Under the pieces are notes generated by a model. That model was given only the letters and a program-made list of their open reading frames with translations. It was not told where the DNA came from and made no database searches. A stretch of 64,000 nucleotides of DNA from NCBI GenBank assembly GCA_000002445.1, contig CP000071.1:1568001-1632000 (forward strand), in the 5' to 3' direction. A program made the translations under genes and the position numbers. This document shows positions 19,504-50,984 of the stretch, piece by piece. This DNA is from Trypanosoma brucei. Lineage: Eukaryota. Every line of letters starts with the position of its first letter. Position 1 is the first letter of the stretch.

Positions 19504-19575
19504 GTCCGTGTGGCTCAATGGAAGAGCATCTGACTACGGATCAGAGGGTTGCAGGTTCGAATCCTGTCACGGATG
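19504..19575 (+). tRNA. tRNA-Arg (anticodon ACG)
   Basis: Folded by hand. Acceptor stem GTCCGTG/CACGGAT (7 bp, one G-U); D arm GCTC-AATGGAA-GAGC; anticodon arm TCTGA-CTACGGA-TCAGA with U33 and anticodon ACG; variable loop GGGTT; T arm GCAGG-TTCGAAT-CCTGT; discriminator G. No CCA is encoded, as expected for a eukaryote. Confidence 0.88.
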
Positions 19576-21508
19576 CTTTTCCCTCTTCAGGCGTCGCAAC
19601 CTCAAACACGCGCGAGCCTCCGTCTACTTTCCAGTAAATTTAACTTTTGCGAGCTCTTGGGTCCAATGGAAACACCGGTGCCCTTTTGATTTGAACCTTG
19701 GTTTTAATGAAACGTGTTTACAGCTTCTGGTACAAAAAGACGTGCGGGTCATGCCTTTCCCTCAGCCTCATCATTTTCGCGATGCTTTAAGGAGGAGCAA
19801 AAGAGGGAGACGGACGCCATTAAGGAGCGGTGTCCCCGGTGCCTGGTGACTCGTGGTGGGAAGTGAAGAAGGGACTAATTAAACCTTCTTCTGGAAAATG
19901 GTGACTGCCGCATCGGCTGTTTATTAACCCCTGTTTCGCATCCTCACATACGCCCCTCGGCTTCGAGGATGCGAAGCGGAGTTGCAGCCAGATCATTATG
20001 GCGCTTATTATCCTCCACACTCTACGGGGAGTCGACCCTCAGGAGAGGTTCCTTCACAAAATTCAATGAAAAAGCTGTACAAAAAAGGGAAGGAGGCGCT
20101 CCCGGGCGCGCCTTCAGAGTGATGAGGAAGAGCAAAGGGTTACCCAAACCCTGTTAATGTTTGCATTCTTACCATACGATGCGAACTGTTATTCTTTGTA
20201 ACTAAATAACCCTAAAAGTTTTATTGGTAGCGAGCGGCAAACGTCCTTTTTAAAATATGATGCTTGATTTACGCTGCTTGACTGTGTTTCGCCGGCCCTT
20301 TAGGATTGTGGTTTCGAAGAGGCACGAGTCCCCAATGCCGCCACTGAGCCGTTTACAAAAATATTTGAGGGATTGGAGAAATATATCCAAAAAGGAAAAG
20401 GCGTCACCAACGCTGTGCCTTTGAAACGGGCCGAGGCGCGGATACTTTTCCGTGTCCCCGACTCTCTTGGGTTTGTCTCAGTATCAGCAGCTGAACGCCG
20501 AAAGTTTGGGATTTATCCCTCAGGACTGGAAGCTGCCCACAGCAATAAAGGCGTGGTGGTAGACAGGCGTTACGTGCAAACGGGTTGGAGCACACTCAAT
20601 TCAGCGAGACATGCAGTGCGGTTTCCTATTCCATTCGGAAGAAAAAAATATACTTACACGCATGCAGCGGAACCCGTCATCAACTCTTACCTGGCGCACT
20701 TTCTGTCGTTCCGGAGCCGCGGTTTTTCCATCACTAACATTCCCATCACATAATCCCAACCTTTCAATTGGGATGAAATATTGCTGTCATTTTCAATAAT
20801 AAATAAGTTATCTTCCATTGACGCTCGACTAATGTTGCTAATGACCTTCCCTACAAGCAGTACGAAAACAAGCGATGTGACACATTTGTAACAGGGAATT
20901 ACGACAGGACCATCGCGTTTGCACTTGGATGAACGTTCAACTCCCCTATTCCATCCTCACCACACACACACACACACACACCACGGCAGCAGTGGTATTT
21001 GGAAAAAAAAACATGCAAAGTGGTACCTCCGCAAAAAAAAAATAATAATAAGAAAAACAAGTGAGGAAGGAGCGGAGGGAAAAGAGAGCAAGGGAAAGAT
21101 ATAAGTTAATCCAACCACATTCTCTTCACACACCCTATTTTTTTCCTTCGTTAAGTCGACCTCATCTTTACTTCAATTTCTAAGGCAAGGGAACAAATAA
21201 CTTAATTGGAGGCGTCTGCACCTCCCGTCATGTGTACCGGTACCACAGCGGTTTAACAAAAACAACAAAATTAAGTAAAGTCTCCACGGGTGAATGGCGA
21301 TCTGAGTCTTTCACCTTATACATGGCGGAGGCTAACCTGGCGCCCGCCCGTCAATATAAAAAAGGGATGCGTACGCACATATACACCACATACATACATA
21401 TACATAAATATACATAAAGTAAGCACGTAAGTGTAGAAATTTACATATATTTTAATTATATATGATGCCCAACAGACGACGATAAAGGCGGCTACACCGA
21501 CCGCCATA

Positions 21509-27367: not shown

Positions 27368-27661
27368 TTAAACCCTGCCCACACGGTCGCGTGGAATTAG
27401 GCGTATCTCCTGGCCATATTTCATGAAGACATTTCCCGCTGTCTGTGCAGGGTTGATGCCCGTACCGTCCTTCGTTGTGGCTGCCATGGAATCCACTGAC
27501 GCAATGCCGAACTCCTCGGCAGCAAACCGTAGTGCTGCTGTCAGAGGTGCCTCTTCCGCAATGCTTATGACGCGGAAGGGTTGGCTCCGCTCCGAAGTGA
27601 GGATAATACGGAAGGTCACTTTACCGCCAGAGCGCGCAGGGGCTTCTTCATTTTGAGACAT
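27368..27661 (-). CDS. UFM1: ubiquitin-fold modifier 1 (UFM1) precursor
   Basis: 97 aa: ...[84 protein letters not shown] aligns throughout with human UFM1 ([38 protein letters not shown]...[28 protein letters not shown]). A 2-residue extension follows the conserved C-terminal Gly. Confidence 0.93.
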
Positions 27662-27862
27662 TATTAGCTAACAACCTCCCCTTCACTAAATCACCCGCCT
27701 CCAGAAGTTATTCTGTTCCCTTGTGTGCTTGCCGTGCTGCTGATTTCCTTCTCGCTTTTGTCCAAACTACTGCTTTCGTGTACAGGCCTAGCTAACTTAT
27801 GACCAACAAAACAGGAGTAGAGGGGCGAAGGAAGCACTTCACGAAAATCTGCATATGCAACC

Positions 27863-28182
27863 ATCACAAAAAGGGGGAAATACCGGCATGAGTTAATATG
27901 GGACAGTTGCATTGTCCAAACTGTTGGGGTGGGAGGCTCTCCTGACTCACTGAGGAATAAACAAGGCGGGAAACAGTCACCGCAACAAACGCCTTGTTTC
28001 CCCAGGTCAGTAGAGCAGTGCAGCAACCAATCACTTGAAATGCTCGCCCACACTCCCGTTCGACGCACCGTACGAATTTCCCCACATTTCCAGGTCATAG
28101 TTGCCGTTTGTAGCGGTGGAAACAAACTCTACACACCTGCTCACGATGTTCCCACGCCTCGCAAGCGAAGATAGGAAGAAAA
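27863..28182. repeat. 320-bp dispersed direct repeat, copy A (appears 100% identical to copy B)
   Basis: Read by eye against 34291-34610: identical from ATCACAAAAAGGGGGAAATACC to GCAAGCGAAGATAGGAAGAAAA, with unrelated flanks. Confidence 0.9.
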
Positions 28183-28785
28183 TAAATAAACTGAATACTG
28201 AAAGTTGTTGGGATTAATTTTTTTTTTATAAAAAAAAATAAGTAATAGTGTCTTCGTTTGTGCACACACAGAAACACATGATACGCTAAGCTCCCAACTT
28301 CAAGCAACGGAACTAGCTGTAATGACTTATCACAGCGCTTTACTTCCTCCTTGTTGTTGTTCACTACTAATGAAGGAGATTACGGTACCAACATCCAACG
28401 GCAGGGGTACGTAACTCCAATTGATGCGAAAGAAACTGTCATGGAGGAAAACGCTAATAAAAACAGTAGTGAGAAGATTCAAAAACAACAGAGGGGGGGA
28501 CTACGATATTTGATTGGTGACGTTCTGTCTGCTTTGGAAATATAGAAGGGAGTAAAGAAAGCTTATGCACTTGAAAGAAGGAAAGTAGCAAGATAGAGAA
28601 CGCTAAATGCGATGAATGCTGCCGGGACCACCGCTGTGGATCATCCGTAATTATACTATGTTGAAGACATCCCTGTAAGTGTAACAACTACATTGTAAGA
28701 ACTGCCTATTTTCCAATAATGAGGAAGCCACACCCCTGCACTTCCAAAACAAATAATCGTAGATATATATATATATATATATATA

Positions 28786-30180
28786 TTACGGATATACACT
28801 GTGTTCTCGAAGTGATTGGCGTAACATGGAAGCCATGACATCAAGCGGCCGCTGCATTAGTGCCACTGTGTTACTGACAAAAGGATGGGACAGCGCCTCC
28901 TGAACCGACATCCTCTGTGACGGCTCATAACGGATCAGCCTCCGTAGAAAATCAGTACCTTCAACACCCACGCGTCCCTGGAAGCCGGATGCTTTCACAT
29001 ACTCATCGAATGCGGATGGAAAACACAACTCCGGCGGGAAATGATACAGCTCGTCCCTGGGGTCCGCAACACAACCACTCTCTCCATCAATACCTACACG
29101 CATTACGGCGGAGAGGTGTGAGGTGCCTGTTGCAGTTTTTTGCACATTAGGGAGATTCCTCTCGTGCTGTTTATGGACACCCCGTGAATTCTTTGTTTTT
29201 TTTCCATTTTCTGCAGGTTCCCCCCTGGCCAATTCGGCTGCAGCCTTGAGAAGTTGTACGGCCTTGGGGCAATTTTTCATAGATGGCCACGTCTCAGGTG
29301 TGGGCGTGCCAAGCAGCTTGAACGTCTTGAGCAACTGATCCACATCGGTATTTCCGCGTATTAATGGGGCGCCCGTAACCATTTCTGCGAAGATACAGCC
29401 AACCGACCACAGGTCAACGGCGAAACCGTACATTGCAGATCCCAGCAGCGCATCAGGGCTACGATACCAGAGGGATGCCACGTCGTGAGAGTACTTTTTT
29501 ACTGGGATACTCTCTATACGGGCCATCCCATAATCACCCAACTTAATTACCAACTGTGAAGTCGGAGTGGTTGAGCCAGAGGGGACAGTACCATCGGCTC
29601 CATGGTCCTCCGAAGCGATCCTGGCGTTAGGGTTTTCGGTGGGGTTCGCATTCTTGGGGCAGTTGGCTGCCTCATCAATGTCGTCCCAGTGCCCTCGCGT
29701 ATTAACTACTTCCGTTTCCCTACTAGAGACTGACATTTCACTGCCCTCAGACCCTGATATTCCGTCAACCCTAACAAAAATGTTGTCTGGTTTCAAATCT
29801 CGATGCACGACACTCCGCTGATGCATGTACCGAAGGCCCAGGAGGACTTGTTTGAGAATTTCCTTAACCTGTGTGCGCACTCTGGAGTCGTGTTTGTGCA
29901 TGAATCTCCTAAGATCATATTCGCAGTACTCAAAAATAAGAGTAAGTTTTGGCGGCTCGAAAAGCACGTCATAGAGTCGCACGATATTATTATGCCTTAG
30001 AACCTTAAGAAGCGCAATCTCCCGTATGGCGGTCGATGGTGCACCATCATCCTCACTGCCGACGATAATGCGTTTATACGCAACAATCTGACCGGTGGCC
30101 AACTCCCTCGCCTTGTACACCACTCCATAGGTTCCTTCGCCAAGCTTTCCAATGCATTGCAGTCTGTTGACAGTTGACAT
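28786..30180 (-). CDS. cdc2-related (CDK-family) protein kinase with two large insertions in the catalytic domain
   Basis: LGEGTYGVVYKAR (Gly loop), AYKRI (VAIK-type Lys), HRDLKPDNIF (catalytic loop), LGDYGMAR (DFG variant), SLWYRSPDALLG, DLWSVGCIFAEM. An insert of about 100 aa rich in Ser/Glu lies between the catalytic loop and DFG, and a second lies after subdomain XI. The architecture resembles the T. brucei CRK subset with inserts; possibly CRK4, but I am not certain. Confidence 0.88.
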   Translation of the reverse strand: MSTVNRLQCIGKLGEGTYGVVYKARELATGQIVAYKRIIVGSEDDGAPSTAIREIALLKVLRHNNIVRLYDVLFEPPKLTLIFEYCEYDLRRFMHKHDSRVRTQVKEILKQVLLGLRYMHQRSVVHRDLKPDNIFVRVDGISGSEGSEMSVSSRETEVVNTRGHWDDIDEAANCPKNANPTENPNARIASEDHGADGTVPSGSTTPTSQLVIKLGDYGMARIESIPVKKYSHDVASLWYRSPDALLGSAMYGFAVDLWSVGCIFAEMVTGAPLIRGNTDVDQLLKTFKLLGTPTPETWPSMKNCPKAVQLLKAAAELARGEPAENGKKTKNSRGVHKQHERNLPNVQKTATGTSHLSAVMRVGIDGESGCVADPRDELYHFPPELCFPSAFDEYVKASGFQGRVGVEGTDFLRRLIRYEPSQRMSVQEALSHPFVSNTVALMQRPLDVMASMLRQSLREHSVYP

Positions 30181-31149: not shown

Positions 31150-34050
31150 TTACGTCGCTGATACCCCTAATCTTGCTTCGTACGCACGAAGCCGGGCGGT
31201 TAGTTGTCCAATTGCTGCATCTTTCCTCCCAATAAGTGTGTGTGTATCGTGCAACTTCGAACTTAAATCTGTCAACTCTTCTTGCATCCTTCGATTGTCG
31301 TCCTCGTATGTTGCAAGTCTCGAGGAAAGCAACCTCACTGTACCCTGCAATTCGCTATTCAACTGTTCGCGATGCCTACCCTCTTCTTGCAAACGCTCCT
31401 TCGCCGCTTCTGTTTGGCCCAACATTTCCTGTAGCTGAAGACGCTGCCGTTCCGCGTCCCGCTGAGTTTGCGCCATATCCTTTAGACATTGCGCTTTAGC
31501 CTTCTGCGCACGGCTAAGATCTGCACGGAGTGTGTTTAGCACGTCGTCAAGTCGATGTAAATCGTCCTCGCGGAGCAACTTCTCTTCTGCAAGTTGATCT
31601 CGCAGTGAACCCATAGATGTGTCAGCTTCCCGACGCAGCTGATTAACTTCCTCACGCAGTCGATGCAGTTCAGAGTCCTTGAGAGCAGCTGCCTCGTGCA
31701 CCTTTGTTGCATCATTATGTAGTTTCTCTGCTTCACGACGAAGTGCCAGGGCCTCTTCTTCATGTTGTTGTTTCTGCGTGTGTAGCTGTCTCTCATGTTC
31801 CTTGGCCATTTCTGCAGCTTCCTTTGCATGTTGTCGAGCGTCGGCTTCGGAGGCTTCCAGAGCCTCCTCAAGTTCAGTGATTCGCTCACCTACCGCGGCG
31901 AGTTCGGAGTTCTTACGCTGCAACTCCTCTTCAAGTTCCTGTCGCCGCGTCTGTGTACGACGATGTGCCACTTTGGACTCTTCAGCAGCATCTCGTGATT
32001 CCTGAAGTTTTTCTGCCGTTTCCTTCAGTGCTTGTCGCTCGTCGTCAAGACGCCGCTCGCATGCCTTGTACCTTGCCTCTATTTCTTCCAACGCGTGCTG
32101 AAGACGTTGGCATTCTGCCTCTGCTTGGGTCTTCTGCAAATACAAGGCTGCTGTATTTTTCTCTAAACTAATTTGGCATTCAGTAACCTCTCGTTCACGT
32201 TTGTCATCCGCATGCTTGGCTTCTTCAAGAAGTCGCTTGTTCTCTGTCCGTAAATTTTGCAGTGCTTGTGCTTTTAGTGCGATTTCGTCCCGCAGTCGTT
32301 GTTCCTCCAGATCTCGCTGTAGCAACCGCTGCTTTAAATCTTCGACCTCAGCAGTACATTCACGCAACTGGGCTCGAAGTAACTCCTGGCTGTTTTGACG
32401 CTCTTGGGCCGCAGCCCGTTCTCGAGCACGACATTCTGTTCGAAATGCTTCCATTTCAGTGGCCAAGCGAGTGGCAGTGGTTTGCAACCCCTCCGCACGT
32501 ATCGTGACAAGGTCCCGTTCCGCTTCTGCATTAACCCGCGCTGTGTTTTCATCAGCATGCTGTCGACGCAAGGTATCGATTACGCTCTGTAATTGGCTGA
32601 CCTTAACATTGTGTAGGTCACGCAGCTCCTCACACTGGCGCGCTGTTTCTTCGCTCATTGCCTCTTTTTCCTGCCGTAGCTGCTCCACAGCCTGGTTCAG
32701 TGCCTGTATCGTTTTTTCCTCACCTTTTAGTGTCCTCTGCCTACCTTCCTTCACCTGCTGTTCCGCCTCGTCACGCTGTTTTCGCGCCTCCTGAATTTCC
32801 TCCTGCAACTTGGTCAATTCTTGCACATATGATTCTTTAATAGTTTCTTGCTCCTTTGCATGTCTCTCCTCCTGCTCACGCAATCGCTCAGCAAGGCCAC
32901 GCTCGTGATCAAGTGCCTCCCGTCTCCACTCCTGCAGTTTGGCAGCGTCTTTCTCCATGCGAATCGTGAGTTCCTCATTCTGTGACGTCAACTCTTCAAT
33001 ACGGCGCAAATACCTCTGCTTGAATTCCTGTTGCCGCTGACTTGCCGCAGCCCGCTCCTTTTCCAGAACAGCTTCAGCATCAGCGAGTCGTTCCTGTTGT
33101 TGCTGCAATTTATCTTCCAGTTCTTGTCGGCACGTAAGCTGTTGTTCATAATCTTCTCGAGTGGAGTGCACCATGGCCCGCAGACTGGTTATCTCCCTCC
33201 CTTGTTCTGCTATGAGGGATTCTGTCTGCTGCCTGTAGTTTTCCATGATTTCACTCTTTTCTTTCCGTTCTCGTTCCAACAGGGCGAGGAGCTGCTGCTT
33301 GCGCTGAATTGCCTCCTCCGTTATTCGCGTTTTCTCCTCCAAAACACTCTCGGACAACCGTTTGAGGACTGCTATTTGCTCCATTAGTCCCTGAATATGC
33401 TCAGCGTTGTCTTCGCGCAGCTCTTGCATTGCCTCTTCAAAATTACTGCGTGCACGACGATTCGTCTCTTGCTCTTGTGCGAGGGCCGCACGTAAGCTAT
33501 CTATTTCCGCCGACTGCCTCGCGGCCTCCTCACGGGACTCCGCCAATTCTCGCTCCACATACACTAGCATCTCCCGTACCTCGACGTTTCGTAGCACTGA
33601 ACTGCCCTTCGCGCCGCCGTTATAATTTAAGTGAGCCGCTGCGTGTTGCCTATCACATAACACCGTGCAATGTAGATTTTCGGCGTCAAAATGTTCTGTT
33701 TCCCTTAGAGATGGTGTTGGTGTAAGAACGCTATCCGCAGGTTCTTCGTGCGATACCTCCAGCTCTGTCATCTTTCCGCTTTTCGCAGGCGTAACCATGA
33801 TCATCCCACCCATCTCACGTGCTTCATTGGTTGCTAGTGGCTGCTGTTCTCTGTAGGCAGTTAACCGGCCCTGCTTTGTGTCCGCGCTGCCAGCAATTCG
33901 GGCGAGGTTGTCGTTTGTAGAGCTGCCTTGTGAGCCAGAACCACAACCAGAGAACACGTCGGTGTGAAAAGACATTAAACTACTGAGTGGAAAGGGTGTA
34001 AAGAAACAAATGCGGGAGTAAAGTGAAATACAAGTAGACAGTCGGAACAA
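31150..34050 (-). CDS. large coiled-coil protein (966 aa)
   Basis: About 800 aa of heptad-like E/R/Q/L/A-rich sequence (myosin-tail/SMC-like composition). The first 25 codons are pyrimidine-rich and UTR-like, so the true start may be the Met at 33975. Confidence 0.6.
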   Translation of the reverse strand: MFRLSTCISLYSRICFFTPFPLSSLMSFHTDVFSGCGSGSQGSSTNDNLARIAGSADTKQGRLTAYREQQPLATNEAREMGGMIMVTPAKSGKMTELEVSHEEPADSVLTPTPSLRETEHFDAENLHCTVLCDRQHAAAHLNYNGGAKGSSVLRNVEVREMLVYVERELAESREEAARQSAEIDSLRAALAQEQETNRRARSNFEEAMQELREDNAEHIQGLMEQIAVLKRLSESVLEEKTRITEEAIQRKQQLLALLERERKEKSEIMENYRQQTESLIAEQGREITSLRAMVHSTREDYEQQLTCRQELEDKLQQQQERLADAEAVLEKERAAASQRQQEFKQRYLRRIEELTSQNEELTIRMEKDAAKLQEWRREALDHERGLAERLREQEERHAKEQETIKESYVQELTKLQEEIQEARKQRDEAEQQVKEGRQRTLKGEEKTIQALNQAVEQLRQEKEAMSEETARQCEELRDLHNVKVSQLQSVIDTLRRQHADENTARVNAEAERDLVTIRAEGLQTTATRLATEMEAFRTECRARERAAAQERQNSQELLRAQLRECTAEVEDLKQRLLQRDLEEQRLRDEIALKAQALQNLRTENKRLLEEAKHADDKREREVTECQISLEKNTAALYLQKTQAEAECQRLQHALEEIEARYKACERRLDDERQALKETAEKLQESRDAAEESKVAHRRTQTRRQELEEELQRKNSELAAVGERITELEEALEASEADARQHAKEAAEMAKEHERQLHTQKQQHEEEALALRREAEKLHNDATKVHEAAALKDSELHRLREEVNQLRREADTSMGSLRDQLAEEKLLREDDLHRLDDVLNTLRADLSRAQKAKAQCLKDMAQTQRDAERQRLQLQEMLGQTEAAKERLQEEGRHREQLNSELQGTVRLLSSRLATYEDDNRRMQEELTDLSSKLHDTHTLIGRKDAAIGQLTARLRAYEARLGVSAT

Positions 34051-34290
34051 GAGACACTTACTCTAACATTCACCGCAACTAATTAAAAGGATGCTTGGAC
34101 TTCAAATCTTCTTATTCCCAGGTGTTCGCAGCTCCATAACGTGGGATTATGATGAGTGGCCCTTGTGCGGGAGCTGCGAGGTCGACAAAAGCATGGCAAA
34201 AAACAAACAGAACGTCACAGCCACGCCTGCAAGTTAGAAAGTTGAGAATGACAGTTAGAATAGCAAACGTTAAGAAATGGAAGGAATCTC

Positions 34291-34610
34291 ATCACAAAAA
34301 GGGGGAAATACCGGCATGAGTTAATATGGGACAGTTGCATTGTCCAAACTGTTGGGGTGGGAGGCTCTCCTGACTCACTGAGGAATAAACAAGGCGGGAA
34401 ACAGTCACCGCAACAAACGCCTTGTTTCCCCAGGTCAGTAGAGCAGTGCAGCAACCAATCACTTGAAATGCTCGCCCACACTCCCGTTCGACGCACCGTA
34501 CGAATTTCCCCACATTTCCAGGTCATAGTTGCCGTTTGTAGCGGTGGAAACAAACTCTACACACCTGCTCACGATGTTCCCACGCCTCGCAAGCGAAGAT
34601 AGGAAGAAAA
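34291..34610. repeat. 320-bp dispersed direct repeat, copy B
   Basis: See copy A. Both copies lie in intergenic spacers of the - strand cluster, 200-240 bp upstream (in the transcription sense) of the next gene's ATG. Confidence 0.9.
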
Positions 34611-35878
34611 AAAACGAGTATAGAAAAGACCCCTCCTCACACACACTGCGAGTCGCCAGGCGCATACAGACAATACTGTTGTTGGTGCTGCCGTACTTGC
34701 TGACTTCGTTTGATTTCCTCAGTAGTCAGATTTCGTCGTTAGAAAATAGAGTCACAGCTCTTCATGAGGCGGAAAATTTCACCGCACGTACGGCACTTTA
34801 GTAACTTGTGCGTGCAACCCTCTTTTTACCAGGCAAGTGTAATCAGTCCATTTCTCAGTTTTTGAAGGGAAAGGAGTAGCACTAAACACAGTACACTGTG
34901 TCAGTGATCCGGCCCTCTCATTGTAACAAAAGCGTGTACGGCCATAAATGTCAATTGTGTGTGGTCTTTCCACTATCGTGCCCAACAATTTTTGGGGAAG
35001 AGATAGCACGTGAGTCTTGCCCGCAAAATGGCAAAAGAGCACCACGTACAAATTGCGGGGCAAGATGTATCTAAGCAGGGGGGGGGGTAAACAACCCACC
35101 GGGGGCGTTCAGCCATTGGTGTTGGCACCGTGCAGTGAACCATGCCTGTGTAGCGGTGGGGAAGCCTCCGGCATAACCAAAGGAGTTTGCCAATCAGTCG
35201 TTTATTTCCTAGTTAAAGCCGAATCAATGTTACACAACTCTTTGCGGTTCCATGTCACTAACTTCCTAAATGACAAGGGTCTCCCCTGTAAGTTCGAAAG
35301 TGAACGTATGGAAAGTGAGCACCCGTCACCCATCCTCCAACACACACGTAAATAGAGCGTATATGATTATCCAACAAAAACTGCAAACAAAAGGGTAAAG
35401 TACAAATATCGTTATCCCCTCCTAAGAGGAAGTAACGCAGTACAGGGTAAAAACTGTCTTGCCTTCAGAGACGCAGCTTGGGCACCCATAGCGTTTGGGT
35501 CTGTGTTTCGGGCGTTTGTGGTAGGTTGGTGATACTTCGATCATTGAGAACAAACCTTCAAGTCACCTTATCTGCAAAACGCTGCCAGCGGAACCGCCAT
35601 ACTACTGCATAAAATCTAAATTGCACTGCACTCTGCAAGTGATGAGTGCTTATCGTAGAACACCGAACTGAGAAAAGTGCCGAAACTATGTTATATCTGA
35701 CAGGTGATATTACATGGTGTGTGAGAAATTACTAGGGAAATAGCAGCAACACAAAATAAAACAACCAACAATATCTGAGGAGATATGATGAACTAACCGA
35801 ACGACGAACAAAACTTCATTACGTTCGATTTCTGGAAGTAAAAGACATTGTTGACTTCAACTAAAATGGAGGTGAACA

Positions 35879-37780
35879 TCAATTAGGTTTGCTGAAAACA
35901 GTACTCACTCCCTCCAGACGATGCACTAAATCGGTGGCGCGCTGCTTCCACAACGCCCCCGTATCCCTAAAAAAAACTCCACGGTAGTCTCGTTCAAGTA
36001 TTGCCCCTTGGGCCTCCACCGCCTCAACCATCCTCCGCGTGTGTTGCAGCAACTCCATCTTTGGCTCATACTGAGGGGATTTGGTTGACAGTACGCACTT
36101 CTCGCTGGTACCGCCGCTCGTTGGGAAGTTTCCCGGAAGTTCTGCGCTGCAGGAAAGTAACCCGGACCAAAACACAACTTTCGACCAGACGTGCTGAACA
36201 ATGCTACTGGCACTTCCAATTCCCCTTTCTTGTCTGCTGGCTGGCTTGGAAAGCAGTTCTGGGATAAAATAACGATGTGTGCGGTTCTTGTTTTCAATAT
36301 CATCTTTCAGCGAGTTACGTAGCTGAAAAACGCGCTCCCTTAAACGCCAGTAACTCTCAAATCCTGCCCCCAGTGCTCCCCGTTCCTCTAATGTAAAAAC
36401 AGGCCCTACGGAGGTGCCAAGATTTTCTGTTTGGGGACGCCTTAGTTCCTTGAGCATTTCAAACACTGCCGCTGCTTCCGACACGCATTCGTTGTACTCG
36501 GCACTATAGCGTGCAAATGCGGTAATGTCATCCTCTGTGACACATTCGGACCAATAAAGAATCAGTGAGTCCCTCATGTACCGAAACTCACATATTGATG
36601 GTCGAAAGACTATAGTAACTTGGTCCGACCTTCCACAGGCTAAAGATACTCCAAGGCGCTCCAGTTGTTCAACCTCCGAATTCAGTTCATCGATGAACTC
36701 TCTGAGTGCTTTATAGTACGCTGGAAGAAGAAGCCGTCGATTAAGTCTCTGGTCATGGAATGTGTATTCATGGTCGTAGAATAGGTTTAGCTGACTCTGA
36801 TGTCTTAGAAAGACACTTCGGACGTCATGAATCTCGTACACGGTCACTCGCACTGTCCGCGCGCGTCTCATAGCGGGGCGCGGCTCGTTATATGTTGCAG
36901 AAAACGGCTCGGGTGAAACACGCTCTTGCCGCTCGAGCAATGGCTGAGCGGGTTCCAACCTATGTGCCTCAGCTGTCCACTTGAAATCATCTTGCAATTG
37001 GTCACAACTCCCATTGCTGTCTCCTTCATCGGTGCCACATTGTACGTCTTCGTGAATGACATAACCACCCGCAGACGGAACTGTGCCCTCACCGTCAATT
37101 ACGCTAATGGCGTTTGACACCCAGGAAATAAGGACATCAAACGTCCGAAGGAACATAGCAAATGACATATTAACATAGAAAGTACTTCTTTCATCCTGAT
37201 TAACGGTACAGTTCTGTCTGCCGTTGCTCACAAGTGTGTGCCTTTCCTCCGTGCCCCCCAACCCTGGTTGAGGACATGGACTCCCGCCATGGCCACTAAC
37301 CTTACCTCTTACTACTCCGTCGAAAGTCCTTCTACCCAGTGTTGACACCGAGAAGGCAAAACCATACTTCTCGTTTATGGACCTTAGTACTGATCTTCCA
37401 TTTTCGAGTCGCCGAAGCAGAGAAAGTAAATACATTCTGTGTGAGTTCGATGGAGGACCCGAGCCAGATGGTTCGATGACGACAGGAGTTTCGGTAAATA
37501 TTTTCTTAGAACCCGCGGAAAACGAGCTGCGAAAGTGCTCTATGGGAAACGATGCTGCCCCCAAAGCTACCGACTGCCCCGCGGCGCTACTGAAAGGTGT
37601 AAGAGGGCGCTCCCACACAAGACTGCACACACTATTTGTATCTACAACGAGAGCTTCGCATGTTTCCTTGAGTAGACCGATGTCATTCTTGGTGAAGTCG
37701 AGGTGATATGTTGCAAACCAAACTAAAGCCTCTGTGTTCCACTCTTTGGGGAAAATGGCAGCCATTTTCGAAGCACACAC
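35879..37780 (-). CDS. hypothetical protein (633 aa)
   Basis: Long ORF on the cluster strand. No recognised domain. Confidence 0.55.
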   Translation of the reverse strand: MCASKMAAIFPKEWNTEALVWFATYHLDFTKNDIGLLKETCEALVVDTNSVCSLVWERPLTPFSSAAGQSVALGAASFPIEHFRSSFSAGSKKIFTETPVVIEPSGSGPPSNSHRMYLLSLLRRLENGRSVLRSINEKYGFAFSVSTLGRRTFDGVVRGKVSGHGGSPCPQPGLGGTEERHTLVSNGRQNCTVNQDERSTFYVNMSFAMFLRTFDVLISWVSNAISVIDGEGTVPSAGGYVIHEDVQCGTDEGDSNGSCDQLQDDFKWTAEAHRLEPAQPLLERQERVSPEPFSATYNEPRPAMRRARTVRVTVYEIHDVRSVFLRHQSQLNLFYDHEYTFHDQRLNRRLLLPAYYKALREFIDELNSEVEQLERLGVSLACGRSDQVTIVFRPSICEFRYMRDSLILYWSECVTEDDITAFARYSAEYNECVSEAAAVFEMLKELRRPQTENLGTSVGPVFTLEERGALGAGFESYWRLRERVFQLRNSLKDDIENKNRTHRYFIPELLSKPASRQERGIGSASSIVQHVWSKVVFWSGLLSCSAELPGNFPTSGGTSEKCVLSTKSPQYEPKMELLQHTRRMVEAVEAQGAILERDYRGVFFRDTGALWKQRATDLVHRLEGVSTVFSKPN

Positions 37781-39691: not shown

Positions 39692-40339
39692 CTATGCCGC
39701 CAGTCGAACACGCTCGTCGTCCTCGAGAGTTGCACGCTCACGAACCCTTTGCTCAGACGGTAGTTGTGATACCGGGACAACCATGCTCTTCAAAGAAGTT
39801 AGATCACTGACTTGACCTTCGGCAGAGCACAATTCGCTCAGAAGTTCGCTTTCATCATAGACAACAAGTTGCTGCGCTAGAATTTCGTTGATTTGCTTTG
39901 ACTCTTCTACCACGTCAGCTGTACTATCCATTAACTCCAAAACATCATCCATGTTCAATATAGCGTTAAGTTTTGACAGCTCATCCTTGCCACATTTAAG
40001 GGCCTCCACTACTTCTCTTTCGATTTGAGCAAACTCCACTGTGCATATCAACCTTTCTACGTTCTCAAGCATTGAAGTAACTAATGTTATTTGTGACATC
40101 TGGGCCTTTCTTCTTTTTAAACAGTAGAGAGCCAATTCCCGTTTACCATTTCTCAGCAACTCAGCAGCTCTAACATGTTCGCCCTCCGCAGCTCGCTCAT
40201 ATTTCCTTATTGCGGCCATAATTTTATCACGCTGCAACTTCAGCTCCAACTGCACCCTATCAAGGGATGTTATTACAGCCCCTTGGCGTTTGGTTTGTGA
40301 GGCCGGTGGACGTACCGTGCTACTTCCGTTGTTGCCCAT
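39692..40339 (-). CDS. ESCRT-III subunit, Vps20/CHMP6-like (Snf7 family)
   Basis: Snf7-type alternating charged helices (LELKLQRDKIMAAIRKYERAAEGEHVRAAELLRNGKRELALYCLKRRKAQ...). Counting from the internal Met, the product begins MGNNGSS, an N-myristoylation consensus (G2, S6) that among ESCRT-III proteins is specific to Vps20/CHMP6. ORF 39692..40363 is trimmed to that Met. Confidence 0.75.
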   Translation of the reverse strand: MGNNGSSTVRPPASQTKRQGAVITSLDRVQLELKLQRDKIMAAIRKYERAAEGEHVRAAELLRNGKRELALYCLKRRKAQMSQITLVTSMLENVERLICTVEFAQIEREVVEALKCGKDELSKLNAILNMDDVLELMDSTADVVEESKQINEILAQQLVVYDESELLSELCSAEGQVSDLTSLKSMVVPVSQLPSEQRVRERATLEDDERVRLAA

Positions 40340-43300
40340 GAAAACTTCTCCCTCAAGTAGCACCAGAAATTAAACACAAGGATACACATGCACTTAAATT
40401 GATTGGATCAGAGAGACATCAGTAGCCGAAAAGAACGACACACAGGAAATGGAACGAACCAAACATTAAAGTCCTCGCGGTATGGGCACACACACAAAAA
40501 AAAAAACAAGCCCACTGACCACCAGAGCAAAAACCTATTTAACAGAAAAAGTAATGTTACGGCGGCACGGTGTAGAATATAGACATATTATGTGCAGAGG
40601 TAAAGAACAAAACATTTTCAACGCTCGAAAATGCAGACGCAAAAAATGAAAAACTACCGGAATACAAGGCATGTCCTCATTGTCACTGAAATGTTTGCAA
40701 CAAAACCAATATTCCCTATCAGGCAATGAAAACACAACAGAACATCAAACTAGGAACTACCTCCATAGAGATCATTAGTCGGAGATGAAGGAGTCGGGAG
40801 GAACACGGGGGGGGGGGGGTGAACGCATATACCTCCGTACAAAAAGAGACACTTAAATAACAAACTTCTACGAATGATTCCAAGAGATCAAGTACAGGGG
40901 GCGGGAACAAAACATAAAAAACAAAGATACAGACTTCACTTTCACCGTGCATATAAAACCTCGCGTTGTACATAACTCAAACATTCTATATGATGGTTAT
41001 GCACGGATTTAACGACCACACACGATAAAAGGAATGGGAGGAGGCGCTGCACCACTTTCATCAATACGAGAAGAATACAGTACATCTGCAACACCACAAA
41101 TTCATTAAGCTAGCTTACTACCATATAGGGCGTTGCGATCTTCCTCTAGTCGACACCTTTTATCATTGAAAAAATAAAATAAACAGCCTTTTAAGTGCTA
41201 AAATGCGGCTAAACTAAGTGAATAAATAATCCTGATGACGACCCACTTCCTCCAAAAAAGAAAAAAAGAACATAATACTCGTAGTGGAAAATGGGCCCAC
41301 GCCCTTTGTTACATAGAATTGCTTGCGCACAATGTACGTACGCCCCTTGTCGTTTCTCAGTTAAACAAGAAAACAAAGAAAAGGGTCACTCACAGGAACA
41401 TACATGTGTAAGTGTATGCTGTCCTACGCGGACGCTGACTGAACTGGATGCGTCTAATGTTACAGAAACAATGAAACCCGCAACATGATACAGAATGCCT
41501 CCCCGCCGTTCAGCACACGCTGAGCACCCACTATTTCTCTATCTTAAAGGCCAGTCTCGCCCGCGAGCAACGGGCCGCTCTCCTTACCCGAAAAATGCCC
41601 AAAAGGCTCCCGCTTGAACAAATCACTTTCCTAGCATCAACACGTCGATTAAATGCTGTCAACAGACAAAACACCCAACGGCTACATCTTTAATTATTGC
41701 GTTGATCCTTCCTTCCTTGATGCATCGAAGGACAACCCTTAACGAAGCCTCTTTACAGACAACCCAACGGCAGCAGGCAGAGACACATACGACTCCGCAT
41801 CGAGGGACAGCGGCGTAGGGAAGAGGGGAGGAAATGAACACTTCAAGGTGCTGTCCGCGGAGGCGACGGGCCGTGGATTGTTGGGAAGATGTTTCAGGGA
41901 AACTCTTACACTGGCACTACATGGCGTGCTTAGACGCGGAAGCAGACATCTGAAGGTTTCGAGAGCTATTACCCTCCAAAAAAGTGAGATCCCGTGACTC
42001 CTGTGGCGAACGTGACGAAGCCGCGGGGGGTCGGATGGCAAACCCCTGCGGATGTGACTACAGAGCTGCAGAATACATCGTGCGGCACGAAGTCCGCAAC
42101 CGATGCCACTGGAAAAACACACCCTCCCCCCTACTACCAGACCCAACTGGCATTTGTCACGAGGCGGTGCAGGGGTTGCGGCTCTCTCCCCCCCCCTATG
42201 ACTGGCTTAAGCAGAAAATGAACGCTGAGATGACAAGAACATGGCCACGACGGATTAGAAAAGCACATACGGGTGGTTGCAACGGTTTTTCCGCGTGTGG
42301 TAATGTCCTTTGACCTCCGGCCGCAGCCCGCACTGCGTTTCATTCCCCGAAGGTTGCCTACTCGCGTTCTTTCGCAGGGTGTGGGGTGTCGCCCGGTCCC
42401 TGCTTGAGATTGCGTCGGTGGGACCGGGGGCCCCCCCGCTGCCCCGTATTTGGGGGAATGGGTGGGTTTTCGTAGTGTGCTTCGTGGTTCGGGCATTCAG
42501 TCGTCGCATTTTCCTCTTTTGAAGTTCCAAGTTGCCTCTGTCTTCGGCTTTGTATCGTTGGTGGCGTAAGTGACTAGGATTGCATGATGGATTGGATGGT
42601 TTGGCTTTTCCCCTTGGGTTGTTTCGCGTAATATTTGTACAGAGGTAAGTACATTTAACTTTTACTATAGAACACCTATTGAGCTAACGGGAAGGACGCT
42701 GCATATCTATATCCTTTAGCGTAGGAGGGGAATCTTGCGAGGATGTTCGGCGTCGTGTAAACAGTAGTGGCTGTGATGTCGTTTTTGCCTCCCCCCTTTT
42801 TTACCGCTTGCGTGCATATACGAGGAATTGTCTTTTTTTCCCCACTGTACACTACTTCGTGGCTGACGCCAGAGTTAAAGTTTGAAGGCCTCGCAACGTA
42901 TTTCCCTCGCTTTTGTGAGTCTGCGGTAAATGTATGTGGTGCGCAGAACAGCGGGTGACAGTCTTTTGCTGTGGTGCGTTGGCCCATTCAAAGTAATGCC
43001 GCATGGCTTCACGCTTTACGTACTGCTAAATCACACCCAGTTTGCCTCGAATTCATTGTCAACATGCCGTTTTCCGTTGTTAGCCTCGTATTTTGGCGCT
43101 CGAGTTTGTTACTCAGTGTCTTTAGGTAGCGTAGTGGAGGTGAAGGCATGAAAGAGTGCAAGCGCGAACTATTTTGTAATTTGGTCCTGCCTTGTTTACA
43201 CGGAGGTGTCGGTTTTTTTTTTTTTTGATGACTCACGGTACTGGCTGGTGTTGGTGGGTGTGGATGTTATCACTTCATTTTTTTTTTTAAAGACCCCATC

Positions 43301-45149
43301 TGCCACTACTGGATGGGCAGCCTCGTGCCTTTCTCGACCGTTGATGCTTCTAAGTGCCTTGTAGACTCACCGGAGTAGTTTGTTGGTTATGGCACTTTGA
43401 GCATATTTGTTACCCTGTTCGCCGGTGGCCCAGTTCCCTCATTGGTGTTGTTTTACCCAATACTTATATCTCTATGATTCTTGTAGGTGCGTTGTGTTTT
43501 CAATCTTTTTCGTATGTGGTTAACGTTACTCCTGTTTGTCCTCTGTCCGTCCTTCTGTGCTACAGACACTTTCCGCATGCGCTACGCTGCTATTTTCTTT
43601 TGTTCGGAAAATTTGCATCTACTCTGGTTAATTTTTTGATATAGTGCGATGGGGTTGCGCCACCACATTGGGATATTGCTTCGTAAGCGTTGGATTTGGT
43701 ATTCTTGAAGTACTAGACGATGTGTCATGTGTTTGCCTGATGCAGTGCTGCGTTGTATTCTCGGTTCAGTCGACAGGTATTGAGTCTCTCAGTGACGTAT
43801 TTGAAAATAGGGTCATTGTAAGCGGTCTTTCATTTTGTTGGATGAGGGAGTGAGCGGGTTTAGAGTATATTTGTTTCCTGCGATACTTTCAGTGGTGGGG
43901 CCCTTCAACACTCTGATGACGCTGTCCGCTTTGGTGGACGAGGATCATGTACGCTCCTGGTTCAGGCATCTTTTACCCATCAAATGATTGTACCGTCATT
44001 GCTGGGGGAATCGGGAATGAAGACGGTTTCTCTTGATATCAACAGTATGTTTTGTCTTAATTTTATTTCTCTGCCGCGGTTGGTTGTGAAGTTGTCTCGT
44101 TTTGCTTCCCACTGGGTTTCAGCCATCAACATTTTCTGGTCGTCCGCTACTGCAGTTACTCAACTGAGTTAAAACCATCTCGCTCAGCGATGTTGGACTG
44201 CGAGTGATTACTCTTTGAGGTCCTGCATGATCTAACCTTCGGAAATAGCTTTATTGACTTGTTCATTCAAACGTTTGCATAGCTATAGCAGATAAGTGTC
44301 TGACACTTCAGTGAGCATCACGAAATCGCTTACCGCACAACCAGGGAGGAGATTGTTGAATAACTGTACCAGTCAATACCAATGGCAATACTGCCGATTA
44401 CACATAGCTATATTATACCGTATAAATTAGTACAAAAGAAGGTGAAATCATAATTAATCATTATACTAAATATGATTATAAGAAAGTGCTTCTGCTGGAG
44501 ACACATCTAGAGAGAAGGCTCGTGACCTTCATCATCACCACCCTGAGAATTTGCGTTTCAAGGGCCACACACTTTGTGAAACAACGATAAACAATGACAC
44601 CAACAAACTCAAAAAAACCAACAAATCAAAAATAGTACAAAAAACAAATAGACGCGCACAGAAAGTGAAAAAACATCAACATTTCAGCAATCAAAAATTT
44701 GTGCAATTCAAAAATACAAATAAAAGCAAGGCGAAGGAAAAAACAACTGGTTAACAACGAAATAGTATCATAGTATAGTCACTCCACACAATGACTGTAC
44801 TTAAAAACAGAAAAAAATGATAATAAGCAAAAAAAGCAAAGAAAATATCGCCAGCACTAAGAGGATCAAAAAAAAAAAACCGACGTCCTCCACACCGACG
44901 ACCAAATTTATATACAAGACATTGCCATCTTATGTGCATATCAGGGAGAAAATATCAACAAAACAACAAAAATTATATAAGAAAACACATTTATTATAAC
45001 AATTATTTAAAAAAATTATATAAAACATTCAAAATACAACAGTTACTACGACAAAGGGTTAAAACGTTACTCTTCGCTACCTCTCCTATGTTCACGCTGT
45101 TCCATTTTTGTAGAAGTTAATCAAGCAAAGCCAAGTAAAATAAACAACG
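40340..45149. promoter_or_regulatory. divergent strand-switch region (putative bidirectional Pol II transcription start region)
   Basis: The - cluster begins at 40339 and the + cluster at 45150. The 4.8 kb between has no conserved ORF. It contains G13 (40807-40819), T14 (43213-43226), T11 (43278-43288) and an A/CAA-rich low-complexity block at 44550-45090. Confidence 0.5.
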
Positions 45150-45806
45150 ATGGGTTGCTCAGGATCGAAGAATACAACGAACTCCAAGGATGGTGCCGCC
45201 AGTAAGGGTGGAAAGGACGGGAAAACTACTGCGGACCGGAAGGTTGCGTGGGAGCGTATTCGGTGTGCGATTCCCCGTGACAAGGATGCTGAGTCGAAAA
45301 GCCGTCGCATTGAACTCTTCAAGCAGTTTGACACGAACGGGACTGGAAAACTCGGCTTCAGGGAGGTGCTTGATGGTTGCTACAGTGTACTCAAGTTGGA
45401 TGAGTTCACGACTCACCTTCCTGACATTGTCCAGCGTGCGTTTGACAAAGCGAAGGACCTCGGCAACAAGGTAAAGGGTGTGGGTGAAGAGGATCTTGTG
45501 GAGTTCCTTGAATTCCGCCTGATGCTTTGCTACATCTATGATATCTTTGAGTTGACTGTAATGTTCGACACCATGGATAAGGATGGAAGTTTGTTGCTTG
45601 AGCTACAGGAGTTCAAGGAAGCCTTGCCGAAATTGAAGGAGTGGGGTGTTGATATCACTGACGCTACCACTGTGTTTAATGAGATCGACACTAATGGATC
45701 TGGTGTTGTGACATTCGATGAATTCTCATGCTGGGCTGTCACTAAAAAGTTGCAGGTATGTGGCGATCCTGATGGTGAGGAGAACGGAGCAAATGAAGGT
45801 AATTGA
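45150..45806 (+). CDS. calflagin / flagellar calcium-binding protein, single-module copy (218 aa, Tb-24-like)
   Basis: MGCSGSK N-terminus (Gly2 myristoylation plus Cys3 palmitoylation motif), EF-hand loops [26 protein letters not shown] and [13 protein letters not shown]. Near-identical copies lie downstream. Confidence 0.92.
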
Positions 45807-46772
45807 AAGCAGAAGGCATTACTGATGGGTTCTGCTTTATGTAATAGAAACCGATGCCAAGCGGGCGTGTGGGGTCAATGCCTTAGCCTCGCTTCCTTGA
45901 TCATATATATCCTGATCATATATTCCCTTAATTTTTTCGTCCTTGTTGACCTCTTTGTTTTCCTTTTCTTTTAATGTTTGTCTTCCTGTGTTTTGCATAA
46001 CTATCTTAGCCACTGTCCGCTACAGATCTATCTCTGCGAACACATGTGAATATGCGTCTGTATTTTCCGGCTGCTTCTTGCGCTGCCACGCTGCATCTCT
46101 GTTGCTGCCGTTGTGATCATGCTGCTTCGTTTTTGTGGGTGCTGTGAAAAAAGATAGTGGTTGTGAAGAGTTATGCTTTTTGTCTTTTGTTTATTATGTG
46201 TGTTGAATTTTTTTTGTGATGAGCGGGTGATATAGAGGGGGTTCCTGTTTCTTCCTTCTCTTTTTTTTTTTTGAGTATCAGTTGGGGTTAATTTCATCCT
46301 CGCATATGTCACAAATGTTTTGAATGCCGCTGTTCGCTTGTTAGGTGTTTTGTGTTGTGAGACGGGTACTTGTTGCTTTTTTCCGATATTATTTTGTAGG
46401 TCATACGTTTTTTTTATATATCTACTATTGAAAACGTTTGTCTTCAAGTGTGTATTTTTTTAATTTTTCAAAAAATATATTTTTGTATTTGTTTTTGTGG
46501 TGGCGGATAGTTGTTTATTTTTCTATGTTTTTTTAATTTTGTTGTGCCGTTTCATTCCTTTTTTTCGGTTATGAAATCTTTCGTAGAATCAGTACGCGTT
46601 GCAGGTGTGTGCGCAAAATCACAAACTGAGGTTAGCGTATCGGCCCACACTAATTTGATTGTTACATCGAAATCACTCTCGTTGAAGGCGTCTCTAGTGG
46701 TGTTGTTCACAGTCTGCTTAAACGGGTTGTTGCTCCCAATCGCGTGTTGATACGTCTGGTGACGGTGGGAAG

Positions 46773-50616: not shown

Positions 50617-50733
50617 AAGCAGAAGGCATTACTGATGGGTTCTGCTTTATGTAATAGAAACCGATGCCAAGCGGGCGTGTGGGGTCAATGCCTTAGCCTC
50701 GCTTCCTTGATCATATATATCCTGATCATATAT

Positions 50734-50806: not shown

Positions 50807-50984
50807 ATAACTATCTTAGCCACTGTCCGCTACAGATCTATCTCTGCGAACACATGTGAATATGCGTCTGTATTTTCCAGCTGCTGCTTGCGCTGCCACG
50901 CTGCATCTCTGTTGCTGCCGTTGTGATCATGCTGTTCCATTTTTGTAGAAGTTAATCAAGCAAAGCCAAGTAAAATAAACAACG

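What the first reader, a model, noticed from the sequence alone, without database searches (positions are those of the whole stretch)
27863..28182. Perfectly duplicated 320-bp intergenic element (second copy at 34291-34610) with internal hairpins
Two copies, identical as far as I can read, lie 6.4 kb apart in the same orientation, each in a spacer of the minus-strand cluster. Each ends 200-240 bp upstream (transcription sense) of the next start codon: UFM1 at 27661 and the coiled-coil gene at 34050. Perfect identity implies a very recent duplication or gene conversion, or strong constraint. The element contains a 7-bp stem CAAGGCG...CGCCTTG with a 20-nt loop, GGACA-GTTGCAT-TGTCC, GGAG/CTCC palindromes, and on the minus strand it ends in TTTTT. 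Possibilities include a shared 3-prime-UTR/5-prime-UTR regulatory module co-regulating the two downstream genes, a snoRNA or other ncRNA gene present in two copies, or a short retroposon-derived (SIDER/RIME-like) element. The embedded 88-112-aa ORFs (MFPPLQTATMTWKCGEIRTV...) are probably non-coding.
Basis: seen in the sequence. Interest (0 to 1): 0.6.

Follow-up and report, generated by a model that had tools for sequence, protein, structure and literature searches.

The report
Duplicated non-coding patch in trypanosome spacers
An identical 321-base non-coding stretch sits in two nearby gene spacers of Trypanosoma brucei chromosome 8, each where an ancestral gene was lost; it is most likely a local duplication kept uniform by gene conversion, not a new RNA gene or mobile element.

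Summary
Window 27862-28182 and 34290-34610 are 100% identical over 321 bp. They are direct repeats with sharp edges and no similarity in the flanks. The window is T. brucei TREU927 chromosome 8, 1,568,001-1,632,000. The repeat (E) flanks Tb927.8.5400 and CRK4 (Tb927.8.5390). Both copies are also present in T. b. gambiense and in a third assembly, where both carry the same 1-nt deletion, which points to concerted evolution. E matches no Rfam family, has no C box, folds no better than shuffles, has no protein homologue and no coding-like codon usage, and lacks the Pr77 hallmark and target-site duplications of ingi/RIME/SIDER retroposons. Published mapping puts copy 2 inside the trans-spliced, polyadenylated 'novel transcript' Tb8.NT.85. 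It also rules E out of the 5'UTRs of both downstream genes. New here: comparison with T. cruzi, T. theileri and Porcisia shows that each E copy occupies a spacer where T. brucei lost an ancestral gene (a 1273-aa protein and a Stealth-domain protein). Best reading: E is a lineage-specific non-coding patch duplicated during those local rearrangements, homogenised by gene conversion, and transcribed as a passenger in spacer RNA. A functional RNA module is not excluded. Genome-wide copy number could not be tested.

The parts
27862..28182 (-). E copy 1: 321-bp repeat in the CRK4 (Tb927.8.5390) to UFM1 (Tb927.8.5380) spacer. It ends 200 nt upstream of the UFM1 ATG.
   Evidence: Exact match extension. 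Present and identical in DAL972. The strand given is that of the surrounding transcription unit.
34290..34610 (-). E copy 2: the identical 321 bp in the Tb927.8.5410 to Tb927.8.5400 spacer. It ends 315 nt upstream of the Tb927.8.5400 ATG.
34103..35340 (-). Published 'novel transcript' Tb8.NT.85 (1237 nt, about 4 RNAs per cell, trans-spliced and polyadenylated). It contains E copy 2 in its 3' third. The orientation is inconsistent between sources; minus is favoured.
   Evidence: Kolev 2010 Table S7: chr8 1602103-1603340, strand '-'. The class is described. The coordinate offset of 1,568,000 was validated on two genes. Ericson 2014 read it on the + strand.
28158..28182 (-). Polypyrimidine tract plus AG at the 5' edge of E in transcription sense (TTTTCTTCCTATCTTCGCTTGCGAG), a possible splice-acceptor signal. 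The same sequence lies at 34586-34610.
   Evidence: Read from the sequence. Use as an acceptor is inferred, not shown.
27959..27999 (.). 10-bp perfect hairpin stem with a 21-nt loop. The same hairpin lies at 34387-34427 in copy 2.
   Evidence: It is only mildly unusual.
33979..33979 (-). Mapped spliced-leader addition site of Tb927.8.5400, 4 nt upstream of the ATG at 33975 and preceded by AG. It lies 311 nt downstream of E copy 2.
   Evidence: Kolev 2010 Table S1 row for Tb927.8.5400. The AG was checked in the sequence.
27368..27661 (-). UFM1 gene (Tb927.8.5380), downstream neighbour of copy 1.
   Evidence: Pfam Ufm1, E 1.3e-35. Gene id from PMC3021533. mRNA length 662 nt.
28786..30180 (-). 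CRK4 kinase gene (Tb927.8.5390). It lies between the two E copies and is the upstream neighbour of copy 1.
   Evidence: Pfam Pkinase. Name.
31150..33975 (-). Tb927.8.5400 (941-aa conserved hypothetical protein). It lies between the two E copies and is the downstream neighbour of copy 2.
35879..37765 (-). Tb927.8.5410 (628-aa hypothetical protein), upstream neighbour of copy 2.

Best explanation
E is a Trypanosoma brucei-lineage, non-coding, low-copy repeat. A 321-bp patch of spacer DNA was copied between two spacers 6.4 kb apart in the same minus-strand polycistronic unit. This most likely happened during the local rearrangements that removed two ancestral genes: a 1273-aa gene between Tb927.8.5410 and 5400, and a Stealth-domain gene between CRK4 and UFM1. 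Because 321 bp is enough for homologous recombination, the two copies have since been kept identical by gene conversion. E is transcribed as a passenger. RNA polymerase II reads through the spacer, and the spacer RNA is trans-spliced and then polyadenylated about 125 nt upstream of the next gene's splice site. At copy 2 this gives the 1.2-kb RNA Tb8.NT.85. By inference, at copy 1 it gives either the tail of the CRK4 3'UTR or a short analogous RNA. Shown: the repeat, its presence in three assemblies, a variant shared by both copies in one strain, the two gene losses, the location of copy 2 inside a mapped processed RNA, and the exclusion of E from both downstream 5'UTRs. Inferred: the link between duplication and gene loss, the direction of copying, the transcript that carries copy 1, and the absence of a specific function.
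For: Perfect identity with sharp edges and no flank similarity. Both copies are present in DAL972 and GCA_003543875.1. In the latter, both carry the same 1-nt deletion (ATGACCTGG to ATGACTGG) and otherwise differ only 6 nt from the edge. Synteny: T. cruzi and T. theileri have the order 5410-[1273 aa]-5400-CRK-[Stealth]-UFM1, and Porcisia has the same order up to the Stealth gene, where the fetched locus ends before any UFM1. T. brucei lacks both bracketed genes, with no detectable relic, and E sits in exactly those two spacers. Copy 2 lies inside Tb8.NT.85. The Tb927.8.5400 splice site is at 33979. The UFM1 mRNA is 662 nt. No evidence was found for any specific RNA or protein family.
Against: TREU927 and DAL972 show no difference across E plus the stretch down to the next ATG (1156 nt over both spacers). 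The same spacers upstream of E show 23 differences in 1871 nt. Gene conversion within a genome does not explain identity between strains, so this hints at purifying selection. It rests on only two strains in a region of patchy divergence. E is a GC-rich island (51% against 37-45% in the flanking spacer), which a random spacer patch need not be. Genome-wide copy number is unknown. The shared indel in GCA_003543875.1 could be a systematic long-read error.
Confidence: 0.5

Rival explanations
1. E is a functional cis-acting RNA module. It would be a shared 3'-proximal domain of the RNAs that end just upstream of UFM1 and Tb927.8.5400 (a 3'UTR or lncRNA domain). It might bind a protein, or supply polypyrimidine/AG and polyadenylation context, and would be kept by purifying selection.
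For: There are zero TREU927-DAL972 differences in E plus the downstream stretch, against 1.1-1.5% upstream in the same spacers. E starts with a 23-nt pyrimidine tract plus AG in transcription sense at both loci. It holds a 10-bp stem seen in only 1% of shuffles. Copy 2 lies in a stable processed RNA at about 4 copies per cell.
Against: Overall structure shows no excess over shuffles. There is no homologue in the syntenic loci of other trypanosomatids. A third strain tolerates an indel in both copies. Neighbouring coding sequence is almost as invariant, so the low diversity may be regional. E sits at different distances from the downstream splice sites (about 89 against 311 nt).
Confidence: 0.25
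2. E is a fragment or member of an ingi-clade retroposon (RIME, TbSIDER, DIRE) or of another dispersed T. brucei repeat family with further copies elsewhere in the genome.
For: On the + strand both copies end in an A-rich run (GAAGAAAA followed by TAAATAAA or AAAACGAG). Genome-wide copy number could not be measured. T. equiperdum contigs break at E, as they would at any repeat.
Against: Neither spacer contains the Pr77 hallmark; alignment scores sit at the null median. There is no target-site duplication: the longest shared flank words are 4 and 5 nt, the null mode. TbSIDER elements are about 570 bp with a median 16% divergence, and RIME shows 4%, whereas the E copies are identical. A search with the E-spanning ORF found only the two DAL972 ORFs at these two loci.
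Confidence: 0.1
3. E carries a small non-coding RNA gene present in two copies, such as a C/D or H/ACA-like snoRNA or another small RNA.
For: Trypanosome snoRNAs are processed from polycistronic spacers and often sit in repeated units. CTGA motifs and hairpins are present.
Against: Rfam gives no match at gathering thresholds, and only chance-level matches at E up to 10. Neither strand has a UGAUGA C box. Folding is not better than shuffles. The repeat unit of 321 bp with an exact pyrimidine-tract edge does not resemble a snoRNA cluster unit.
Confidence: 0.04
4. E encodes part of a small protein: the minus-strand MTWKCGEIRTV... ORF, or the plus-strand 81-aa/44-aa ORF.
For: One frame on each strand is unusually open: 104 codons on + and at least 88 on -. 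DAL972 annotates both minus-strand ORFs.
Against: The minus-strand ORF runs out of E into unrelated flanks, giving products of 103 and 135 aa with different C-termini. The only homologues are those two ORFs themselves. The sensitive search of the + frame found only a spurious repeat-protein match. The codon-usage score of every frame falls below the 5th percentile of real coding sequence. The 1-nt deletion in GCA_003543875.1 frameshifts both ORFs in both copies. The Tb8.NT.85 ORFs occur only in the all-ORF list among the held supplementary files of Ericson 2014.
Confidence: 0.02

Closest known systems
Kolev et al. 2010 'novel transcripts' of T. brucei (Tb8.NT.85)
   Same: Copy 2 lies inside this catalogued trans-spliced, polyadenylated RNA, which has no annotated ORF. 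It fills the slot between two genes exactly as a gene would.
   Different: The catalogue does not mention the internal 321-bp repeat or its second copy. No such transcript is listed for the copy-1 spacer. The transcript's strand is inconsistent between sources.
Direct repeats flanking genes in T. brucei that undergo recombination and gene conversion, such as the calflagin repeats around TbAAT6 in this same window
   Same: Both are same-orientation, near-identical repeats a few kb apart that bracket genes. Both are long enough for homologous recombination, and both evolve in concert.
   Different: The calflagin repeats are genes, whereas E is non-coding spacer. No recombination product between the E copies has been observed. 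For AAT6, the paper read here reports deletion of AAT6 and surrounding genes in resistant lines with unknown boundaries; that the flanking calflagin repeats mediate it is inference, not a reported result.
TbSIDER / RIME (ingi-clade short retroposons)
   Same: Short non-coding repeats in intergenic regions of a trypanosomatid, with an A-rich end on one strand.
   Different: E has no 5' Pr77-type signature and no target-site duplication. It is 321 bp rather than about 500-570 bp, and its copies show 0% divergence rather than 4-16%.
Trypanosome lncRNAs with local roles, such as grumpy
   Same: A processed, apparently non-coding RNA from a spacer within a polycistronic unit.
   Different: There is no functional, structural or conservation evidence for E or Tb8.NT.85, and no embedded snoRNA was detected.

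Membership tests
ingi-clade retroposons (RIME / TbSIDER / DIRE) | 76-79-bp conserved 5' signature (Pr77 hallmark) | tested here: not met
   The best local alignments of the L1Tc Pr77 sequence (taken from PMC1874656) to both spacers score 12-13, which is the null median for this window. Caveat: the probe was the T. cruzi version, not the Tbingi version.
ingi-clade retroposons (RIME / TbSIDER / DIRE) | Target-site duplication flanking each insertion | tested here: not met
   The longest words shared by the left and right flanks are 4 nt (copy 1) and 5 nt (copy 2), the mode of the null distribution.
ingi-clade retroposons (RIME / TbSIDER / DIRE) | 3' poly(A) or A-rich tail | tested here: inconclusive
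   On the + strand both copies end in GAAGAAAA followed by A-rich but different sequence. The run is short and lies antisense to the transcription unit.
ingi-clade retroposons (RIME / TbSIDER / DIRE) | Multi-copy family with 4-16% divergence from its consensus, about 500-570 bp long | tested here: not met
   The two copies are 321 bp and 0% divergent. Family figures come from PMC3820030. Genome-wide copy number could not be tested.
C/D or H/ACA-like snoRNA and other Rfam families | Match to a covariance model; C box (UGAUGA) and D box (CUGA) at the right spacing, or a hairpin plus AGA box | tested here: not met
   The only Rfam hit at gathering thresholds in the window is a tRNA at 19504. In the E-value scan of E, the only match is a chance-level frameshift-site hit at E 2.3. 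Neither strand has TGATGA.
Structured RNA element | Folding energy clearly below that of shuffled sequence, or covariation | tested here: not met
   z = -0.96 in minus sense and -0.72 in plus sense. Covariation cannot be tested because all known copies are identical.
Protein-coding gene | Homologues, coding-like codon usage, and a reading frame preserved between strains and copies | tested here: not met
   see the protein-coding rival explanation.
T. brucei processed 'novel transcript' (Kolev 2010 class) | Trans-spliced and polyadenylated RNA not derived from an annotated ORF | tested here: met
   This holds for copy 2 only, from the published table: Tb8.NT.85, chr8 1602103-1603340 = window 34103-35340. 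It could not be re-derived here because no read data were available.
Low-copy repeat homogenised by gene conversion | Paralogous copies share variants that differ between strains (concerted evolution) | tested here: met
   Both copies in GCA_003543875.1 carry the same 1-nt deletion relative to both copies in TREU927 and DAL972. Caveat: this is a single variant in a single long-read assembly.

The most novel reading that the evidence does not exclude
E is a T. brucei-specific functional RNA domain, present in two processed spacer RNAs that replaced lost genes. It would be kept under purifying selection and would act locally. It might set polyadenylation and trans-splicing choice or mRNA output for UFM1 and Tb927.8.5400, or it might serve as a recombination substrate giving copy-number plasticity of the CRK4/5400 segment.
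Probability: 0.12. Interest if true: 0.6.

Novelty: new member of a known kind. Interest (0 to 1): 0.3.

Why it matters
If E is only a duplicated passenger, it is a small, clean example of three things in a trypanosome polycistronic unit. Gene-loss sites get patched. The leftover spacers still yield processed RNAs. Short direct repeats stay identical through gene conversion. It also marks a 6.4-kb segment (CRK4 plus Tb927.8.5400) that could be deleted or amplified by repeat recombination, as may happen for TbAAT6 between the calflagin repeats in the same window. It has practical effects too: short-read assemblies break at E, and reads in E map to two places. If E is under selection, it would be a rare defined cis-element shared by two unrelated loci in an organism that regulates genes almost entirely after transcription.

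Tried and rejected
1. A six-frame pseudo-protein of E joined by runs of X was submitted to the search for homologous proteins. It returned nothing, not even the known DAL972 ORFs.
2. Exact-product look-ups of two E-internal ORFs (81 aa on +, 73 aa on -) were not on record.
3. The T. congolense orthologue P0004 has no contig in the collection, so the nearest outgroup could not be examined.
4. Supplements of Siegel 2010, Guegan 2022 and Michaeli 2012 are not held, and the one supplementary file held for the 2023 nanopore direct-RNA paper (PMC10048164) had no matching coordinates.
5. tblastn and profile-HMM searches for relics of the two lost genes in the spacers were negative.
6. blastn of E against the T. 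cruzi and T. theileri syntenic loci found nothing.
7. Exact-pattern scans of metagenome contigs and prokaryote genomes gave no match, as expected.
8. A literature search for Tb8.NT.85 and for possible intermediate gene ids found no papers.
9. The single hit of the sensitive + frame search (P0016) is a repetitive 3723-aa surface protein matched through eight short stretches. I rejected it as spurious.

Full report
**The observation.** Base-by-base extension shows that window 27862-28182 and 34290-34610 are identical over 321 bp and lie in the same orientation, 6428 bp apart. Identity stops abruptly on both sides. Allowing one mismatch adds four bases inside an A-run. The 400 nt on either side align no better than chance. 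A sensitive comparison of the two whole spacers finds nothing else in common. In the 64-kb window, the only other repeats of 40 nt or more are gene arrays, a domain repeat and CA-rich simple sequence. The main stem is 10 bp (27959-27968 with 27990-27999, 21-nt loop). Such a stem occurs in 4.5% of equally long windows of this sequence and in 1% of shuffles. The element as a whole folds no better than dinucleotide shuffles on either strand (z = -0.96 and -0.72).

**Where the window comes from.** The UFM1 protein of the window is encoded identically in T. brucei gambiense DAL972 chromosome 8, in assembly GCA_003543875.1 and in T. equiperdum OVI. UFM1 is Tb927.8.5380. Published coordinates for Tb927.8.5400 (CDS 1601975-1599150) and Tb927.8.5430 fit the window ORFs exactly with an offset of 1,568,000. 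The mapped 5' end of the Tb927.8.5400 mRNA (1601979 = window 33979) falls immediately after an AG. The window is therefore TREU927 chromosome 8, 1,568,001-1,632,000. All genes around E are on the minus strand. In order of transcription they are: Tb927.8.5410; E copy 2; Tb927.8.5400; CRK4 (Tb927.8.5390); E copy 1; UFM1.

**Reality of the repeat and its evolution.** Both copies are present and 100% identical in DAL972, although the 20 kb around them is only 98.6% identical to the window. In GCA_003543875.1 both copies are present and both carry the same 1-nt deletion (ATGACCTGG to ATGACTGG). Apart from that, they differ from each other at one base, six nucleotides from the edge. The same change in both copies of one strain is what gene conversion between the copies predicts. 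The caveat is that it is one variant in one long-read assembly. T. equiperdum short-read contigs stop 32 nt inside E at each edge, as expected for a collapsed repeat. Between TREU927 and DAL972 there is no difference in E or in the stretch from E to the next ATG (1156 nt over both spacers). The parts of the same spacers upstream of E carry 23 differences in 1871 nt. This could reflect constraint. However, divergence in this region is patchy and the adjacent coding sequence is nearly as invariant, so I treat it as suggestive only.

**What E is not.**
- Rfam gives no match at gathering thresholds. Only chance-level matches appear when E and its flanks are scanned permissively. Neither strand has a UGAUGA C box.
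Its only relatives among 5.8 billion proteins are those two ORFs as annotated in DAL972 ('hypothetical protein, unlikely' and 'hypothetical protein, conserved').
- The plus strand has a frame open for 104 codons. An exhaustive HMMER search of it found only a repetitive 3723-aa surface protein matched through eight short stretches, which I regard as spurious.
- No frame has coding-like codon usage. The best score is -0.049, against a 5th percentile of +0.026 for real coding windows.
- The deletion in GCA_003543875.1 frameshifts the ORFs on both strands in both copies.
- The 77-nt Pr77 hallmark of ingi-clade retroposons is absent from both spacers, and there is no target-site duplication.
- Published figures for TbSIDER (about 570 bp, 22 copies, median 16% divergence) and RIME (4%) do not fit two identical 321-bp copies.
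- E has no similarity to the syntenic loci of T. cruzi or T. theileri.

**Transcript context.** Kolev et al. 2010 list a trans-spliced, polyadenylated 'novel transcript', Tb8.NT.85, at chr8 1602103-1603340 (window 34103-35340; 1237 nt; about 4 RNAs per cell). It encloses E copy 2 in its 3' third.
- The table marks the transcript '-' but gives start before end, unlike other minus-strand rows. Ericson et al. 2014 extracted its ORFs from the plus strand.
- I favour the minus strand for three reasons. It agrees with the strand column. Position 34103 fits a poly(A) site 124 nt upstream of the next gene's splice site at 33979. A pyrimidine tract precedes 35340 in minus sense, whereas in plus sense the only tract lies downstream of 34103.
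- The Tb927.8.5400 mRNA starts 4 nt before its ATG, and the UFM1 mRNA is 662 nt long, whereas at least 818 nt would be needed to include E. E is therefore not part of either downstream 5'UTR.
- No novel transcript is listed for the copy-1 spacer. Copy 1 probably lies in the tail of the CRK4 3'UTR or in a short unlisted RNA; this is inference.
- In transcription sense E begins with a 23-nt pyrimidine tract followed by AG at both loci. That could act as a splice acceptor, but no data show it.

**A new observation: gene-loss sites.** Orthologous loci were fetched through the Tb927.8.5400 protein.
- T. cruzi and T. theileri have the order MTase, 5410 orthologue, a 1273/1259-aa gene, 5400 orthologue, CRK, a roughly 790-800-aa Stealth-domain gene. 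UFM1 follows the Stealth gene in the T. cruzi locus; in the T. theileri locus no UFM1 gene is called after it.
- Porcisia hertigi (Leishmaniinae) has the same order up to the Stealth gene, where the fetched locus ends before any UFM1. This order is therefore ancestral.
- T. brucei lacks the large gene and the Stealth gene at these positions. No relic is detectable by tblastn or profile search, and the two lost genes are unrelated to each other.
- The two E copies sit in exactly these two spacers. E is also a GC-rich island (51%) in AT-richer spacer (37-45%).
- A simple scenario, which is inference, is a local duplication with one edge at E followed by a deletion that removed the duplicate genes together with the Stealth gene. 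Templated patch repair of a break is an alternative. Either would leave E at both scars.

**Verdict.** The most likely explanation (about 0.5) is a lineage-specific, non-coding, low-copy duplication tied to local gene loss. It is kept identical by gene conversion and transcribed as a passenger within processed spacer RNA. A functional RNA module is the main rival (about 0.25), supported mainly by the between-strain invariance. The retroposon, snoRNA and coding readings each fail defining tests.

**What could not be done.** I could not run a whole-genome copy count, examine T. congolense or T. vivax, or look at read-level transcript data.

**Scores.** Interest is modest (0.3). The element itself looks ordinary. 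Its coincidence with two gene-loss scars, and its location inside a catalogued RNA of unknown function, are worth a quick database check.

Noticed in passing
window 27662-28785 and 33976-35878, compared with L007, L008 and L009: T. brucei lacks two ancestral genes at these spacers. One is a 1273-aa protein between the 5410 and 5400 orthologues. The other is a Stealth_CR2/CR3 protein that follows CRK (lying between CRK and UFM1 in T. cruzi). Both are present in the same order in T. cruzi, T. theileri and Porcisia. No relic is detectable in T. brucei.
   Followed up: yes
window 45150-52711: Four calflagin (FCaBP EF-hand) genes lie at 45150-45806, 49393-50616, 50985-51641 and 52010-52711. Together with their 1025-bp repeat units they bracket the amino-acid transporter TbAAT6 (46773-48239). 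Deletion of this region is reported in eflornithine-resistant lines (PMC2991269).
   Followed up: partly
L005 2196 = window 27773: A Logan contig from run ERR7929163 follows the window from UFM1 up to GCAG|TAGTTTGG, about 112 nt upstream of the ATG. Given the 662-nt mRNA, this is a plausible UFM1 splice-acceptor site. The contig then continues into an unrelated head-to-head TCP1/Cpn60 gene. The junction shares only 4 nt, so it is not a k-mer chimera. It remains unexplained.
   Followed up: partly
window 34103-35340 (Tb8.NT.85): Kolev 2010 Table S7 lists this transcript with start before end but strand '-', the only such row among those read. Ericson 2014 derived its small ORFs from the + strand. 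The transcript's orientation is therefore inconsistent in the literature.
   Followed up: partly
window 7347-9200 (+): A 617-aa ORF carries three WW domains. The domains account for the 99-nt triple repeat at 8733-9197.
   Followed up: partly
window 19504-19576 (+): A single tRNA-Arg(ACG) gene lies on the opposite strand to the minus-strand genes around E (about 22-40 kb).
   Followed up: no
window 28760-28790: A (TA)n microsatellite lies immediately after the CRK4 stop codon. Its length varies between the assemblies compared.
   Followed up: no
window 35000-35200: A second GC-rich island (56%) lies inside the Tb8.NT.85 spacer. It has no detectable homology to the lost 1273-aa gene.
   Followed up: partly
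L003 1-32; L006 1-32 and 6142-6173: T. equiperdum OVI contigs end 32 nt inside E at each edge. Short-read assemblies therefore collapse or break at this repeat.
   Followed up: yes
window about 40400-45100: Genes switch from the minus to the plus strand here: Snf7 at 39692-40339 is minus and the calflagin gene from 45150 is plus. Kolev's Tb8.NT.88-91 are plus-strand. This is probably a divergent strand-switch (transcription start) region.
   Followed up: no
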